DNA of 7,069 nt from IMG/VR virus record IMGVR_UViG_2695420687_000003. One strand, 5' to 3'. Below the pieces are notes generated by a model. The model was given only the letters and a program-made list of their open reading frames with translations, searched no databases and was not told the origin of the DNA. Each line of letters opens with the position of its first letter. The first letter of the stretch is position 1. Source of the DNA: a virus. Its lineage: Duplodnaviria > Heunggongvirae > Uroviricota > Caudoviricetes. Both the position numbers and the translations under genes were made by a program. This document shows positions 1 to 7,069 of this stretch, in pieces.

Positions 1-2982
<2,982 letters not shown>

Positions 2983-3001
2983 TCACGCTCCAGAAACGAC
3001 A

Positions 3002-3021
3002 AAACCGCCCTGAGGCGGTTT
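3002..3021 (-). terminator. GC-rich hairpin (8-bp stem, 4-nt loop) in the I-J intergenic space, followed on the minus-strand transcript by a U-rich run; possible partial intrinsic terminator or RNA stability element
   Basis: Plus-strand aaaccgcc-ctga-ggcggttt is a perfect inverted repeat. On the minus-strand RNA it reads AAACCGCC UCAG GGCGGUUU followed by UGUCGUUUCU. It lies 19 nt after the I stop and about 22 nt before the J start. Confidence 0.3.
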
Positions 3022-3039
3022 CACATAAAACATTTTGCA

Positions 3040-3681
3040 TCAGCGACCAATCACCACAACCTGACCACCATCCCCTTCGTCTGCCGTGCTGATCTCCTGA
3101 GAAACCACGCGTGACCCCACGCGCATTTCACCGTACAGAACAGGCAGAACATTGCCCTGGGCAACCATGTTGTCCAGTGACGAGAAATACATGTTCTGCT
3201 TACCGTTATCCGTTGTCTGTGTACGGGGAGTTCTGGCTTTCGGTGCCAGCATCTGTGCAACACCGCCAAGCGTCATCGCCGCACCCATTGAAAAGAGAAT
3301 GTCACTGAAAGCGATACTGATCCCCGGCATCCAGATTGCCGTAGCAATCAACGCCGCACCCAGCACCGCCTGAAACACACCGCCACTTTTTGCTCCCGCA
3401 AGACGCGGTACGATGTGGATCACTGCACTATTTGCCAGCGGCTCATTAAGACGGGATGATAATTCGGTTTCGCCTGCATCACGCCCGGCAATCCGTACCT
3501 GATACCAGCCGTCGCTCAGTTTCTGACGAAACGCCGGGATCTGTGTGGCCAGCGCACGGATAGCTTCGGCCCCCGTTTTTACACGAAGGTCGATGCGGCG
3601 GCCAAATCGTTGTAAATCCCCGTAAAGGCAGATGCGTGCCATGCCCGGTGACGCCAGAGGGAGTGTGTGCGTCGCTGCCAT
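3040..3681 (-). CDS. I: Tail tip assembly protein (lambda I-like), 213 aa
   Basis: Translation MAATHTLPLASPGMARICLYGDLQRFGRRIDLRVKTGAEAIRALATQ... and C-terminus ...KQNMYFSSLDNMVAQGNVLPVLYGEMRVGSRVVSQEISTADEGDGGQVVVIGR match lambda gpI as recalled. Hydrophobic Gly/Ala-rich central segment. Start codon overlaps the 3' end of K by 103 nt, as in lambda. Confidence 0.9.
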   Translation of the reverse strand: MAATHTLPLASPGMARICLYGDLQRFGRRIDLRVKTGAEAIRALATQIPAFRQKLSDGWYQVRIAGRDAGETELSSRLNEPLANSAVIHIVPRLAGAKSGGVFQAVLGAALIATAIWMPGISIAFSDILFSMGAAMTLGGVAQMLAPKARTPRTQTTDNGKQNMYFSSLDNMVAQGNVLPVLYGEMRVGSRVVSQEISTADEGDGGQVVVIGR

Positions 3682-4322
3682 TTGTCGGTGTACCTCTCTC
3701 GTTTACTCAGTTGTTCAGGAATATGGTGCAGCAGCTCGCCGTCGCCGCAGTAAATTGCGGCGTGATTCGGCACCGATGAACCAAAACAGCACAGCAGCAC
3801 ATCGCCCGGCTGCGCCGCTGACAACGGCACCTGATACAGCCCTGTGGCCTCCAGATTATCCAGATAGAGATTCTGACCGTTACGCCACCAGTCATCCTCA
3901 CGATGAAAATCCGGCATCTCAATCCCCGCCAGATGGTAAGCGTCCCGGAACAGCGTGTAACAGTCCGTCACCCCGTGCTCAAAGCGCCGCCCGGTAAGAT
4001 GTGGCACACAGCGGAACTTGTGAATCGCCCCCCGGCAGACCAGCCACCACGGCAAATCACTCTGCACCTGCAACCGCCGGTCAGCCTCACTCAGCCAGGG
4101 CAGACCACCGGGGTGGCTGTGAACCAGCGCCACAATCCCACCCTGCATCTCTGCCCGCAGCCAGTCCTCCGGCGACATCCGGAAATACTCCTCCGGCTCA
4201 CCGGAGATATTCACGCAGGGAAAATATCTGTCCCCCTCCGACGTTCTCACCACGAAGCCGCACGACTCCGCTGGCGCACATCGTCTGGCGTGCGCCAGAA
4301 TCGCTGATTCTGTCTCTGTCAT
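3579..4322 (-). CDS. K: Tail tip assembly protein (lambda K-like) with N-terminal MPN/JAMM-type motif and C-terminal NlpC/P60-type Cys/His motif; long 247-aa reading frame (a shorter form starting at the internal ATG at 4176-4178 would be 199 aa)
   Basis: Translation MTETESAILAHARRCAPAESCGFVV...HSHPGGLPWLSEAD (H-x-H-x7-S-x2-D JAMM signature) ...HGVTDCYTLFRDAY...HAAIYCGDGELLHH (NlpC/P60-like Cys/His). Strong similarity to lambda gpK as recalled. The ATG at 4320-4322 lies 6 nt after the L stop codon. Confidence 0.85.
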   Translation of the reverse strand: MTETESAILAHARRCAPAESCGFVVRTSEGDRYFPCVNISGEPEEYFRMSPEDWLRAEMQGGIVALVHSHPGGLPWLSEADRRLQVQSDLPWWLVCRGAIHKFRCVPHLTGRRFEHGVTDCYTLFRDAYHLAGIEMPDFHREDDWWRNGQNLYLDNLEATGLYQVPLSAAQPGDVLLCCFGSSVPNHAAIYCGDGELLHHIPEQLSKRERYTDKWQRRTHSLWRHRAWHASAFTGIYNDLAAASTFV

Positions 4323-4327
4323 GGGAT

Positions 4328-5026
4328 TTACTGCGAAAGTTTGTTAATGGAAAGGTAACCGCCAAAGTTGCCGACGTTATTGCGGAACTTACAACCGCTC
4401 AGGCACTTGCTGCATTTATCCTTCGTGATATCGGACGTCGGCTGGTCATATTCATCCGCGACCGCCGGACCGTGATAACCGCACTCATCGCCGCGATAGG
4501 TCCAGGTGCAGGTGTTGGCCAGCATGATACGTCCCGGAAAAACAGCGCCGTCCGTTTCCGTCGGCGTGGACAGTACAAAAGAGGCACTCACCGCGCTCAG
4601 TTCGCTGCACTGCTCGATGCGCCAGCGACTGATCACCTCCTGCTCCGGATCGGCGTCGCTGTTTCCGTTGACGAAGTTCACCGCATCCAGAAAACGAGCG
4701 TAAACCTTACGCCGGACAACCGTTCCGCCGACCAGACTCTGCATATCTTCCACCATCCCGGTGACCATGCCGTACAGGTTAGAGACTGCCAGCGTGGGCC
4801 GCGTACTGGTGCCTTTGCCATTCAGTTCAAAACCACTCCCCTGAATGGGATACGGCTGATACTGTCGCCCCTGCCATGTGACCGGCTCACCTTTTTCGTT
4901 CAGCTCATTACAGAAAAAATAACGTTCTCCACCGACCTCTGTCAGGTCGATTTCCCAGAGCACCACGCTGGCCGACTGCTCCGCACGGGTGCATTCATTC
5001 AGTGTTTCCTGCCGGATATCCTGCAT
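4328..5026 (-). CDS. L: Tail tip protein (lambda L-like), 232 aa, with C-terminal cysteine cluster
   Basis: Translation MQDIRQETLNECTRAEQSASVVLWEIDLTEVGGERYFFCNE...DKCSKCLSGCKFRNNVGNFGGYLSINKLSQ, near-identical to lambda gpL as recalled. Start ATG overlaps the M stop codon (ATGA overlap at 5024-5028). Confidence 0.92.
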   Translation of the reverse strand: MQDIRQETLNECTRAEQSASVVLWEIDLTEVGGERYFFCNELNEKGEPVTWQGRQYQPYPIQGSGFELNGKGTSTRPTLAVSNLYGMVTGMVEDMQSLVGGTVVRRKVYARFLDAVNFVNGNSDADPEQEVISRWRIEQCSELSAVSASFVLSTPTETDGAVFPGRIMLANTCTWTYRGDECGYHGPAVADEYDQPTSDITKDKCSKCLSGCKFRNNVGNFGGYLSINKLSQ

Positions 5027-5355
5027 CAGTTCACCACCTGTTCAAACTCTGCGCTGAACTCAACACGCAGCATACTGACCCGCGACGACCATTTTGCGCA
5101 GGTCACCTTTATCTGCCTGTAACCATAAGGCGGCGTCCACAGAAAAGCCTTCCAGCCCCCGTGCTCAGCCAGAAACGACTCCAGCGCCGTGGCCTCCTCA
5201 CGGGAGACAGACAGCGTCACGCTGTACGTTTTCAGGTCAGCGTTCAGCCCGGCAGGCGCACGCTGGGAATAGCCATCACCAAAGCGCACCTCCCTGACGG
5301 AAGGAGCCGATGTCACATCCATCCCGGGTTTCACTTTCCAGCGGAAGGTTTTCAT
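5026..5355 (-). CDS. M: Minor tail protein (lambda M-like), 109 aa
   Basis: Translation MKTFRWKVKPGMDVTSAPSVREVRFGDGYSQRAPAGLNADLKTYSVTLS...KVTCAKWSSRVSMLRVEFSAEFEQVVN matches lambda gpM as recalled. Start ATG overlaps the H stop codon (ATGA at 5352-5355). Confidence 0.92.
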   Translation of the reverse strand: MKTFRWKVKPGMDVTSAPSVREVRFGDGYSQRAPAGLNADLKTYSVTLSVSREEATALESFLAEHGGWKAFLWTPPYGYRQIKVTCAKWSSRVSMLRVEFSAEFEQVVN

Positions 5356-6836
5356 CGTCCACCTCCGGAGAACAAGCCACCATCACGCATCTGTGCCTGA
5401 ATTTCATCACGGGCACCCTTGCGGGCCATGTCATACACAGCCTTCAGCGCCTGTGGTCCAATCTGCCCGTTCGTGCCGTCGTTGTTAATCACCACATGGT
5501 TATTCTGCTCAAACTTCCCGGACGCCTGCGACCGGCTGTCCGCCAGACTGCCCGGTGTACCGACATAACCGCCGGTGGCATAGCCGCGCATCAGCCGGTA
5601 AAGATTCCCCACGCCAATCCGGCTGGTTGCCTCCTTCGTGAAGACAAACTCACCACGGTGAACAATCCCCGCTGGCTCATATTTGCCGCCGGTTCCCGTA
5701 AATCCTCCGGTCGAAAAATGGAATTTCGCCGCAGCTGCCTGAATGGCTGTACCGCCTGATGCGGATGCGCCGCCACCAACAGCCCCGCCAATGGCGCTAC
5801 CGATACTCCCGACAATCCCCACCATTGCCTGCTTAAGCAGAATTTCTGTCATCATGGACAGCACGGAACGGGTGAAGCTGCGCCAGTTCTGCTCACTGCC
5901 GGTCAGCATCGCTGCCATATTCTGTGCAATACCGTCAAAGGTCTGCGTGGCCACGCTTTTAACCTGCGAAAAACTGTCCGTCGCACTTTCTGCCCACTCG
6001 CCCCAGCCGGACTTCAGACCGGCCATCCAGCTTCCACGAAGCTGCTCCTCCGCAGACCAGGTGTTCTTCAGTGCAGATGTGGCCTTCGCCAGCGCATCCG
6101 GATTATCACCGTACACGTCACGAAGGCGCTGCTCTTCCGACTCCCGCTGCGCCTGACGGTCGGTGAGGCCCCGCGCCTGGGCACTGATTGCCGCCTGCTT
6201 CGCGCCCTGCTGCTGCTCAAACCGCGCAGCCTGCTGTGCCAGCTCATTCAGCCGTTTCTGGTGTTCAACTTTGTCTCCCAGCTCAGCCAGCTGGCGTTTG
6301 TACTCCAGCGTCTCTTTCTCATGGGTCAGCAGGGATTTTTCCTGCTCAGATAACTGCCGTTTCGTGGCTGCCTCTTTCAGGACCGCATACTGATTTTCCG
6401 CTTTCCATAAATCGCGACGCTGCTGGCTGATTTTCTCATTCGCACCGCTGTGTTTTTCCAGCGTCCGGAGCTCGGTTTCAAGCGCCAGCAGGGCAGCATG
6501 CGCCTGGTCTTCCTGACGCTCACCGGCTGACACTTTGACTCCTGACGACTTCGGCTTTTTCAGCGTCGATTCATAATCCTTTTTCGCCGCCGCCATCAGC
6601 GTGTTGTAATCCGCCTGCAGGATTTTCCCGTCTTTCAGGGCCTTATTCAGTTCTTCCTGACGGGCGGTATATTTCTCCAGCGGCGTCAGCAGACGCTCAT
6701 ACCCCTTCTGCGCCTCTCCGGTATACTTCAGCTGTGATGCGTCCCGTTCGGCCCGGTCCCTGGCGGCCAGTTCACCGAACAAAAAATATTTACACGACGC
6801 ATCATTTCCCTTTCCTAAGTCGCGAAAGCAATTCAA
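5352..6836 (-). CDS. H: Tail tape measure protein (lambda H-like), C-terminal portion only; reading frame is N-terminally truncated relative to full-length H (~850 aa) and is probably a gene remnant
   Basis: From about residue 33 of the ORF (ASQLKYTGEAQKGYERLLTPLEKYTARQEELNKALKDGKILQADYNTLMAAAKK...) to the C-terminus (...GSIGSAIGGAVGGGASASGG...YDMARKGARDEIQAQMRDGGLFSGGGR) the protein follows the C-terminal ~460 residues of lambda gpH as recalled. The first ~30 codons (MNCFRDLGKGNDASCKYFLFGELAARDRAERD) have no counterpart I recognise, and the reading frame is closed by stop codons immediately upstream. By my reading the first codon is TTG, not ATG, with no Shine-Dalgarno at suitable spacing. 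My hand count of the start is off by one from the track coordinate, so a search should confirm. Confidence 0.75.
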   Translation of the reverse strand: MNCFRDLGKGNDASCKYFLFGELAARDRAERDASQLKYTGEAQKGYERLLTPLEKYTARQEELNKALKDGKILQADYNTLMAAAKKDYESTLKKPKSSGVKVSAGERQEDQAHAALLALETELRTLEKHSGANEKISQQRRDLWKAENQYAVLKEAATKRQLSEQEKSLLTHEKETLEYKRQLAELGDKVEHQKRLNELAQQAARFEQQQGAKQAAISAQARGLTDRQAQRESEEQRLRDVYGDNPDALAKATSALKNTWSAEEQLRGSWMAGLKSGWGEWAESATDSFSQVKSVATQTFDGIAQNMAAMLTGSEQNWRSFTRSVLSMMTEILLKQAMVGIVGSIGSAIGGAVGGGASASGGTAIQAAAAKFHFSTGGFTGTGGKYEPAGIVHRGEFVFTKEATSRIGVGNLYRLMRGYATGGYVGTPGSLADSRSQASGKFEQNNHVVINNDGTNGQIGPQALKAVYDMARKGARDEIQAQMRDGGLFSGGGR

Positions 6837-6980
6837 TTATTATAGCTTTTCCCAGACTTTTCGTTTCTAACAGTGAATTTCAAACGGTTTTTATGCCAGG
6901 TGTCCCCCCCCCCTTGATTCAATGTTGAGACAGAACTCAATCTCTGCCGGGATAACATGGCTTCCCTTAAGCTATCGGCC
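6837..6980. other. AT-rich apparently non-coding junction segment upstream of the truncated H gene; no ORF of any length in the H-upstream direction; possible prophage deletion or rearrangement breakpoint
   Basis: Composition shifts from GC-rich phage-like coding sequence to AT-rich sequence (aattcaattattatagcttttcccagacttttcgtttctaacagtgaatttcaaacggtttttatg...). The H reading frame is closed by tandem stops (TAA TAA) just upstream of its first codon. A -10-like TATAAT occurs on the minus strand at about 6840-6845, but without a convincing -35. Confidence 0.5.
6904..6913. repeat. C10 homopolymer tract (G10 on the opposite strand) in the non-coding region upstream of the truncated tape-measure gene
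   Basis: Directly visible: tgt-cccccccccc-ttgattc. It is the only long homopolymer in the window. Confidence 0.9.
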
Positions 6981-7069
6981 TTACAATAGCGCCAGCAAGA
7001 AAACCAGTTCCCTCAGTTCAATAGCCGCCCCCAACGTATCGCCAGTTTGCCCTCCCAGAGTACGTTTAA

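What the first reader, a model, noticed from the sequence alone, without database searches (positions are those of the whole stretch)
6700..6990. Tape-measure gene is missing its 5' half: abrupt breakpoint between H-like coding sequence and AT-rich foreign-looking DNA
Lambdoid tape-measure proteins are ~850 aa, and tail length scales with their length. Here only the C-terminal ~460 residues are present. Upstream of about 6790 the sequence no longer encodes anything H-like, the frame is closed by stop codons, and composition becomes AT-rich. The downstream genes M, L, K, I and J look intact. This pattern fits a defective or cryptic prophage with an internal deletion, or insertion of another element into H. 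It is less likely a naturally short tape measure, because the ORF has no credible start signals. Either way, this end of the tail module is not that of a normal functional lambdoid phage.
Basis: partly seen in the sequence, partly recalled or inferred. Interest (0 to 1): 0.6.

Follow-up and report, generated by a model that had tools for sequence, protein, structure and literature searches.

The report
Half tape-measure gene at suspect contig join
The phage tape-measure gene really does start halfway through, but the DNA in front of it is ordinary Escherichia albertii chromosome (cobS–ldtA), and the join is probably a stitching error in a poor draft assembly, or else a routine deletion in a decaying prophage.

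Summary
The breakpoint is real in the sequence and lies at window 6777/6778. Reading the minus strand, 6776→5352 encodes residues 386-859 of an 859-aa lambda-H-type tape measure. These 474 residues are identical to an intact E. albertii allele, and the N-terminal TMP_2 domain is missing. M, L, K and I are full length; J runs off the contig.

The "AT-rich foreign-looking" DNA (6778-7069) is host chromosome, 98% identical to the E. albertii type strain. It holds the cobS 3' end, a cobT remnant, the ldtA promoter and the first nine ldtA codons. ldtA's ATG is out of frame with H.

The window is an entire 7,069-bp contig of a draft assembly with more than 1,300 contigs. I found the junction in only one other place, a sister draft assembly. 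That contig chains at least eight unrelated chromosome and plasmid pieces of 63-272 nt, with N gaps. In both contigs the host piece is short (292 and 180 nt), and the join shares only 1 nt.

- **Best reading (about 0.6):** a chimeric contig end, not biology.
- **Rival (about 0.33):** a genuine deletion from ldtA into H in one clone, leaving a dead tail-tip remnant.

Both readings are ordinary. Only reads, PCR or long-read data can decide between them.

The parts
6981..7067 (-). 3' end of host cobS (last 28 codons plus stop, ...KRTLGGQTGDTLGAAIELRELVFLLALL*); the contig ends inside the gene
   Evidence: Translation. Collinear with and ~98% identical to cobS of E. albertii NBRC 107761 (L004 1472-2215, PF02654 CobS). 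About 82% identical to E. coli IAI1 cobS.
6806..6980 (-). Host spacer between cobS and ldtA: a cobT remnant (ATG at 6958-6956, a 10-G run, a diverged cobT 3' end) followed by the ldtA upstream region
   Evidence: The same arrangement is in the E. albertii type strain, where cobS is followed after ~170 nt by ldtA with no cobT. In E. coli a 1,080-nt cobT sits here. Only 6780-6874 matches E. coli, at 89.6%, and it matches the cobT-ldtA intergenic region. No consensus sigma-70 promoter was detected.
6778..6805 (-). First nine codons of host ldtA (erfK), MMRRVNIFC-; read on from this ATG the frame gives a 25-codon ORF ending in TGA, out of frame with H
   Evidence: Alignment to E. coli IAI1 ldtA and E. 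albertii ldtA (PF03734 YkuD in the full gene). ORF translation.
6777..6778 (.). Junction between ldtA' and 'H; C6777 is common to both partners (1-nt microhomology)
5352..6776 (-). 3' 55% of a lambda-H-type tape measure gene (codons 386-859 plus stop); the mechanical ORF extends to TTG 6836 through ldtA-derived sequence
   Evidence: 474/474 identical to P0002 residues 386-859. PF09718 only, no PF06791. ORF listing.
5026..5355 (-). gpM-like minor tail protein, full length (109 aa)
   Evidence: PF05939. The exact protein is very widespread next to 853-1024-aa H genes.
4328..5026 (-). gpL-like minor tail protein, full length (232 aa)
   Evidence: PF05100. Same length as in L017.
3579..4322 (-). 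gpK-like tail protein (247 aa)
   Evidence: ORF. The equivalent 247-aa gene in L017 carries PF14464 and PF00877.
3040..3681 (-). gpI-like tail assembly protein (213 aa as the longest ORF)
   Evidence: PF06805. The exact protein is found only in a handful of E. albertii assemblies.
1..2979 (-). gpJ-like tail tip/host-range gene, first 993 codons; cut by the contig end
   Evidence: Gene call. Collinear with J of L017 and L002.

Best explanation
The ldtA'|'H join is most likely not a feature of the living genome. It looks like a chimeric contig end in a very fragmented draft assembly of an Escherichia albertii strain.

In this reading the strain carries a lambda-like prophage with an ordinary 859-aa tape measure gene and an ordinary cobS-ldtA locus. 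A short stretch of the cobS-ldtA locus became attached to the end of the phage contig. The likely route is a chimeric DNA fragment or read made during library preparation, or faulty scaffolding and gap closing.

**Shown:** the two sides of the join are separate, well-known loci. The join has essentially no homology. The host piece is only 292 nt and ends the contig. The only other contig with the same join is a chain of many unrelated short pieces.

**Inferred:** the two assemblies share a sample, library or reads, which is what would let them share one artefact. The missing H 5' half and the rest of ldtA would then lie on other contigs of the same assembly.
For: 1. The window is the whole contig CDRK01001341.1 of GCA_000936005.1, with a contig index above 1,300.
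2. Apart from this one point, the contig is collinear with the E. albertii chromosome over 6778-7069 (98%) and with intact E. albertii prophages from 6777 to the end of each reference contig (98.5-99.6%, no gaps).
3. The only other occurrence of the join is contig CCBU01001275.1 of GCA_000940615.1 (L006). It is 99.98% identical over window 6956-2035.
4. L006 is a patchwork of at least eight pieces:
   - an unidentified 98 nt;
   - 63 nt of F-plasmid trbI/traW;
   - 272 nt upstream of glgB;
   - 180 nt of cobT'-ldtA';
   - the phage block;
   - 'NN';
   - about 125 nt of purN;
   - 1.8 kb of traK-traB-traP;
   - 147 nt of uxaA.
5. The 180-nt ldtA piece is in the same size class as those junk pieces. 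It is joined in the same blunt way (1-2 nt shared).
6. In both contigs the host side is under 300 nt, although unique chromosome should normally assemble for kilobases.
7. The join was not found in 5,426 complete E. coli genomes, the phage and plasmid collections, IMG/VR or JGI metagenomes. The protein cluster holds only these two truncated copies plus the intact allele.
8. From general knowledge: spontaneous deletions in enterobacteria usually end in several-nt direct repeats or at IS elements, not in 1 nt.
Against: - The identical junction, to the nucleotide, appears in two separately accessioned assemblies. Random chimeras are not reproducible, so this explanation needs the two assemblies to derive from the same sample, library or reads. 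I could not verify that.
- The window contig has no N and no other discontinuity. Its phage part shows no indel errors against relatives.
- A chimeric read would normally be out-competed by genuine reads across H codon 385, unless coverage was very low there.
- Real deletions that cut H do occur in complete genomes (L010).
Confidence: 0.6

Rival explanations
1. The junction is a genuine deletion in one E. albertii clone. A lambda-like prophage sat downstream of ldtA with its int end nearest ldtA, for example at the co-oriented tRNA-Asn about 4.7 kb away. One illegitimate recombination event then removed everything from ldtA codon 10 through attL, int, the early, lysis and head genes, and V-G-T, up to H codon 385. 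That would leave a dead remnant: 'H-M-L-K-I-J. It cannot make tails, because the tape measure N-terminal half, the tube and the chaperones are all missing. It would also inactivate LdtA. Its only likely role would be as a stock of J/tail-tip sequence for recombination with incoming lambdoid phages.
For: - The same junction occurs in two deposited assemblies with an identical 4.9-kb sequence. This is the natural result if they are clonal isolates.
- The orientation fits a simple deletion: ldtA' and H-J are co-directional. The type strain has a co-oriented tRNA-Asn downstream of ldtA that could serve as an attachment site.
- Truncated H genes next to non-tail DNA occur in complete E. coli genomes, for example L010, where H is cut to its last ~147 codons.
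- The window contig is otherwise clean.
Against: - The host side is only 292 and 180 nt in the two contigs.
- In L006 the host side is directly preceded by unrelated junk.
- There is only 1 nt of microhomology and no IS element.
- The junction is absent from every other collection searched.
- No prophage is known here: the type strain has none.
- The sister assembly demonstrably produces false joins of exactly this kind.
Confidence: 0.33
2. This is a naturally short tape measure, or a split H gene interrupted by an inserted element, intron or intein, with the rest of H lying beyond the contig end.
For: None beyond the open reading frame 5352-6836.
Against: - The sequence upstream of 6777 is host cobS-ldtA, collinear with the type-strain chromosome up to the contig end. 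It is not an insertion with H resuming.
- The extra 20 N-terminal codons are ldtA leader and coding sequence read out of frame.
- Intact alleles identical over the retained 474 residues are 859 aa.
- All relatives next to the same M protein are 853-1024 aa.
Confidence: 0.02

Closest known systems
Chimeric or misjoined contigs in low-quality short-read draft assemblies (concatenated library fragments, scaffolder or gap-closer misjoins)
   Same: There is one blunt, homology-free join between two loci that are each collinear with references. A short piece sits at the contig end. The sister contig is built from many unrelated 60-270-nt pieces plus N gaps.
   Different: The same join is seen in two accessions. 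A random artefact should be unique unless the data are shared, and that could not be checked.
Defective lambdoid prophage remnants with truncated tail genes (for example the E. coli K-12 Rac tape-measure pseudogene tmpR, from my own knowledge, and the L010 example found here)
   Same: A 3' fragment of an H-type gene with intact downstream tail-tip genes lies next to non-tail DNA. L010 shows a real case in a closed genome.
   Different: Here the partner is a host housekeeping gene fused at codon 9 with only 1 nt of homology. The structure is unsupported by any high-quality genome.
Phage lambda gpH and intact E. albertii/EHEC lambda-like tape measure proteins (WP_059254513.1, 859 aa)
   Same: Residues 386-859 are 100% identical to the E. 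albertii allele. The Tape_meas_lam_C domain and gene order H-M-L-K-I-J are kept.
   Different: It lacks residues 1-385, including the TMP_2 domain. It has no G/T/V genes upstream and no credible own start site.

Membership tests
Lambda gpH-type tail tape measure protein | C-terminal Tape_meas_lam_C domain (PF09718) | tested here: met
   E = 3.7e-22 at residues 268-342 of the 494-aa ORF.
Lambda gpH-type tail tape measure protein | N-terminal TMP_2 domain (PF06791) and a full length of about 850 aa or more | tested here: not met
   No PF06791 hit in the window ORF. It is present at residues 54-256 of the intact allele P0002. Only residues 386-859 are encoded.
Lambda gpH-type tail tape measure protein | Position in the tail operon directly after the G/T chaperone genes and before M | tested here: not met
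   M follows, but ldtA'/cobS precede instead of G/T. Intact loci show V-G-T-H-M.
Genuine defective prophage remnant (deletion junction with host DNA) | The junction is reproduced in an independent, reliable genome of the lineage | tested here: inconclusive
   A second assembly has it, but that contig is a patchwork of unrelated pieces. It was found nowhere else.
Genuine defective prophage remnant (deletion junction with host DNA) | The deleted segments (H codons 1-385 of this phage, ldtA codons 10-311) are absent from the same genome | not testable with these tools
   The other contigs of GCA_000936005.1 cannot be retrieved by sample.
Genuine defective prophage remnant (deletion junction with host DNA) | A prophage attachment site or prophage is known next to ldtA in the species | tested here: not met
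   The type strain has cobS-ldtA, an ankyrin-repeat gene, tRNA-Asn, a MATE transporter and a second tRNA-Asn, with no prophage. Only one genome was examined.
Chimeric contig (assembly or library artefact) | The two sides are separately collinear with references, and the join has no meaningful homology | tested here: met
   One shared base, C6777.
Chimeric contig (assembly or library artefact) | The assembly (or its sibling) shows other demonstrable false joins of the same type | tested here: met
   L006 has at least 8 unrelated pieces plus N gaps. This was shown for the sibling assembly, not for the window's own assembly.
Chimeric contig (assembly or library artefact) | The junction is supported by few or duplicate reads, while the intact paths have normal depth | not testable with these tools
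   No read data are available. No Logan contig from the underlying runs surfaced in the look-ups.

The most novel reading that the evidence does not exclude
The junction is real and selected. In this reading a host promoter (ldtA) has captured a tail-tip cassette ('H-M-L-K-I-J), so the cell expresses a J-containing tip complex or an N-terminally truncated H. Such a product could serve for receptor blocking or superinfection exclusion, or as a ready-made host-range donor. That would make it a domesticated fragment rather than debris.
Probability: 0.02. Interest if true: 0.4.

Novelty: not a real feature. Interest (0 to 1): 0.07.

Why it matters
It matters little for biology. If the join is an artefact, the value is cautionary. 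A gene that looks truncated at the end of a short contig in a 1,300-contig draft should not be scored as prophage decay, and GCA_000936005.1 and GCA_000940615.1 should be treated as chimera-prone. If the join is real, it is one more decaying lambdoid prophage in E. albertii that also knocks out the non-essential L,D-transpeptidase LdtA. That is a routine event with no new mechanism.

Tried and rejected
- **Foreign element inserted in H:** rejected. 6778-7069 matches no phage record and no genuine plasmid; the 8 PLSDB hits are ldtA-cobT matches in chromosome-like records. It is E. albertii chromosome.
- **E. coli origin:** rejected. No E. coli genome matches 6875-7069, and the ldtA leader is only 89.6% identical.
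- **In-frame LdtA-H fusion protein:** rejected. The ldtA ATG frame stops after 25 codons.
- **Repeat-mediated misjoin or homologous recombination:** rejected. Only 1 nt is shared.
- **Restriction-site signature at the joins of L006 and the window:** checked by eye, no consistent site found.
- **tRNA or att site at the junction:** none in the window.
- **Promoter or terminator consensus near the junction:** none found.
- **Independent copies of the junction:** none in IMG/VR or JGI metagenomes. The second hit of the genome scan (a Nitrospiraceae MAG, L005) appears to be a chance 21-mer match.
- **Literature search for the accession prefixes:** nothing found.
- **Exact-protein look-up with M:** too common to be informative about this strain.

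Full report
**What is in the window.**
All genes of interest lie on the minus strand. In reading order they are:
- the 3' end of cobS (7067-6981);
- a spacer of about 175 nt (6980-6806);
- the first nine codons of ldtA/erfK (ATG at 6805);
- a tape measure (H-type) reading frame running to 5352;
- M (5355-5026), L (5026-4328), K (4322-3579) and I (3681-3040);
- the first 993 codons of J (2979-1), which run off the end.

An exact-protein look-up showed that the window is not an excerpt. It is the complete 7,069-bp contig CDRK01001341.1 of assembly GCA_000936005.1. The contig index above 1,300 shows that the draft is very fragmented.

**Checking the observation.**
I searched 6400-7069 against 5,426 complete E. 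coli genomes and 5352-7069 against the phage collection. Homology to "phage tail tape measure protein" genes always starts at query position 293, which is window 6777. Alignments to the O103:H2 prophage gave the same start, as did three E. albertii contigs carrying the same prophage with H unbroken at this point (L017-L019, 98.5-99.6% identical, no gaps).

At the protein level, residues 21-494 of the mechanical ORF equal residues 386-859 of an intact 859-aa E. albertii tape measure (P0002, WP_059254513.1) at 474/474 identity. Pfam finds only the C-terminal Tape_meas_lam_C domain. The intact allele also has TMP_2 at residues 54-256.

- The breakpoint is at 6777/6778, not about 6790.
- 474 residues are retained, not about 460.
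- The frame stays open for another 20 codons, to a TAA at 6839-6837.

GC falls from 58% to 44.5% across the junction.

**What the upstream DNA is.**
It is not foreign. It has no match in the phage records, and its 8 PLSDB hits are ldtA-cobT matches in chromosome-like records. In E. coli only 6780-6874 matches, at 89.6%, and the match is to the cobT-ldtA intergenic region plus the start of ldtA.

A 21-mer scan of one genome per species hit the Escherichia albertii type strain NBRC 107761. Its cobS-ldtA region is collinear with, and about 98% identical to, window 7069-6778. The type strain has the same arrangement, with cobS followed after about 170 nt by ldtA. E. coli has a 1,080-nt cobT in that position. 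The cobT remnant is therefore at least shared with the type strain and not part of this event.

The ldtA sequence stops after ATGATGCGTCGTGTAAATATTTTTTGTTC. The last C (6777) is also the base preceding GGTGAACTGG in intact H genes, so the join has 1 nt of microhomology. The ldtA ATG is out of frame with H and gives a 25-codon ORF. No tRNA, consensus promoter or terminator lies nearby.

**Is the junction biology?**
The cluster of the 494-aa ORF has three members: the ORF itself, the intact 859-aa allele, and a 476-aa protein. The 476-aa protein is encoded on contig CCBU01001275.1 of another ENA-deposited draft, GCA_000940615.1 (L006). It is shorter only because an N at L006:557 destroys the upstream TTG.

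L006 matches window 6956-2035 at 99.98% and includes the identical junction. Outside that block it is a chain of unrelated fragments:

| L006 coordinates | Content |
|---|---|
| 1-98 | unidentified (no E. coli match) |
| 99-162 | F-plasmid trbI/traW |
| 163-434 | upstream region and first codons of glgB |
| 435-614 | cobT'-ldtA' |
| 614-5356 | H'-J' phage block |
| 5357-5358 | NN |
| 5359-5483 | purN |
| about 5481-7258 | traK-traB-traP |
| 7259-7405 | uxaA |

Such a chain cannot be a real chromosome. The sister assembly therefore contains many blunt false joins between pieces of 63-272 nt.

The ldtA piece is 180 nt in L006 and 292 nt at the end of the window contig. It has the same size and the same kind of homology-free join as those junk pieces. 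Unique chromosome (cobS, cobU and beyond) should assemble for kilobases. Being under 300 nt in both contigs is expected for a chimeric end and unlikely for a real junction.

The junction was not found in any E. coli genome, in phage or plasmid records, in IMG/VR or in JGI metagenomes. From general knowledge, spontaneous deletions in enterobacteria typically end in direct repeats of several nucleotides or at IS elements, so a 1-nt join is atypical.

**The counter-argument.**
One argument runs the other way, and it is serious. A random chimera should not recur at the same nucleotide in two assemblies. The artefact reading therefore needs the two assemblies to share a sample, library or reads. 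They do share an identical 4.9-kb sequence, similar contig counts and the same deposition route, but I could not verify shared data.

If they are independent clonal isolates, the junction is real. It would then be a deletion from ldtA codon 10 into H codon 385. The geometry allows this. ldtA' and H-J are co-directional, and the type strain has a co-oriented tRNA-Asn about 4.7 kb downstream of ldtA that could have been the attachment site.

Real H truncations also exist in closed genomes. In OZ038639.1 (L010), homology to an intact relative begins only 147 codons before the end of H, next to a porin gene.

I put the artefact at about 0.6, the real deletion at about 0.33, and anything else (a naturally short or split H) at about 0.02.

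**How it would work if real.**
The remnant could not make tails. It lacks the tube (V), the G/GT chaperones, the terminator and joining genes (U, Z), and the N-terminal half of the length ruler. From established lambda biology, tail length follows gpH length and assembly needs G/GT bound to H.

H' has no credible start of its own, although it lies downstream of the ldtA promoter. The likely consequences would be loss of LdtA (one of several redundant L,D-transpeptidases) and a stock of J/tip sequence available for recombination with incoming lambdoid phages. These consequences are inferred, not shown.

**Comparison with known things, and novelty.**
As a gene, H' fails membership as a functional gpH-type tape measure: the N-terminal domain, the full length and the operon context were all tested and not met. 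As a structure, it matches either a chimeric contig end or a routine defective-prophage deletion. Neither is new. I file it as "not a real feature" with moderate confidence. If the junction proves real, the right label is "already known".

**Verdict.**
Interest is low (0.07). The decisive tests are read mapping across 6750-6810 against the intact ldtA and H paths, a search of the remaining contigs for the missing halves, and PCR or long reads on the isolate.

Noticed in passing
window 6870-6980 (minus strand); L004 2216-2389: In both this contig and the E. albertii type strain, cobT is reduced to a remnant of about 110 nt between cobS and ldtA. The remnant keeps an ATG, a G-run and a diverged cobT 3' end. 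E. coli has a full 1,080-nt cobT here. This could mean E. albertii lacks this step of the cobalamin lower-ligand pathway, or encodes it elsewhere.
   Followed up: partly
window 6902-6911 (minus strand): A run of 10 G lies in the cobT remnant. The type strain has GGGGGGGTG at this site. The run is identical in both draft contigs. It may be a homopolymer that is hard to sequence, or a variable tract.
   Followed up: no
L006 (CCBU01001275.1) 1-7405: This sister-assembly contig chains at least eight unrelated pieces: unknown, F trbI/traW, glgB upstream, cobT'-ldtA', phage H'-J', NN, purN, traK-B-P and uxaA. Assembly GCA_000940615.1 should be treated as chimera-prone, and so probably should GCA_000936005.1.
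   Followed up: yes
L010 (OZ038639.1) about 7905-10004: A closed E. coli genome has a lambdoid prophage in which homology to the intact relative begins only 147 codons before the end of H. It lies directly downstream of a Q antiterminator gene and a porin gene. This appears to be a genuine deletion of the lysis, head and proximal tail genes, and serves as a natural comparator for truncated H genes.
   Followed up: partly
window 6400-6777: The first 378 nt of the retained H segment are 100% identical to tape measure genes in hundreds of E. coli genomes (O103:H2, O45:H2, O84:H7 and others). The whole tail block is only 93.6% identical to the O103:H2 prophage. This is typical lambdoid mosaicism shared between E. 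coli and E. albertii.
   Followed up: no
window 3579-3681: The longest I-like ORF (213 aa) overlaps the end of K by about 100 nt. Gene callers in related loci give I as 190-213 aa, so the true start of I is uncertain.
   Followed up: no
L005 (Nitrospiraceae MAG contig JBBIOW010000172.1) 3351-3371: This contig holds an exact 21-mer match to the cobT-remnant probe in an unrelated genome with dense overlapping ORFs. It is probably a chance hit and was not examined further.
   Followed up: no
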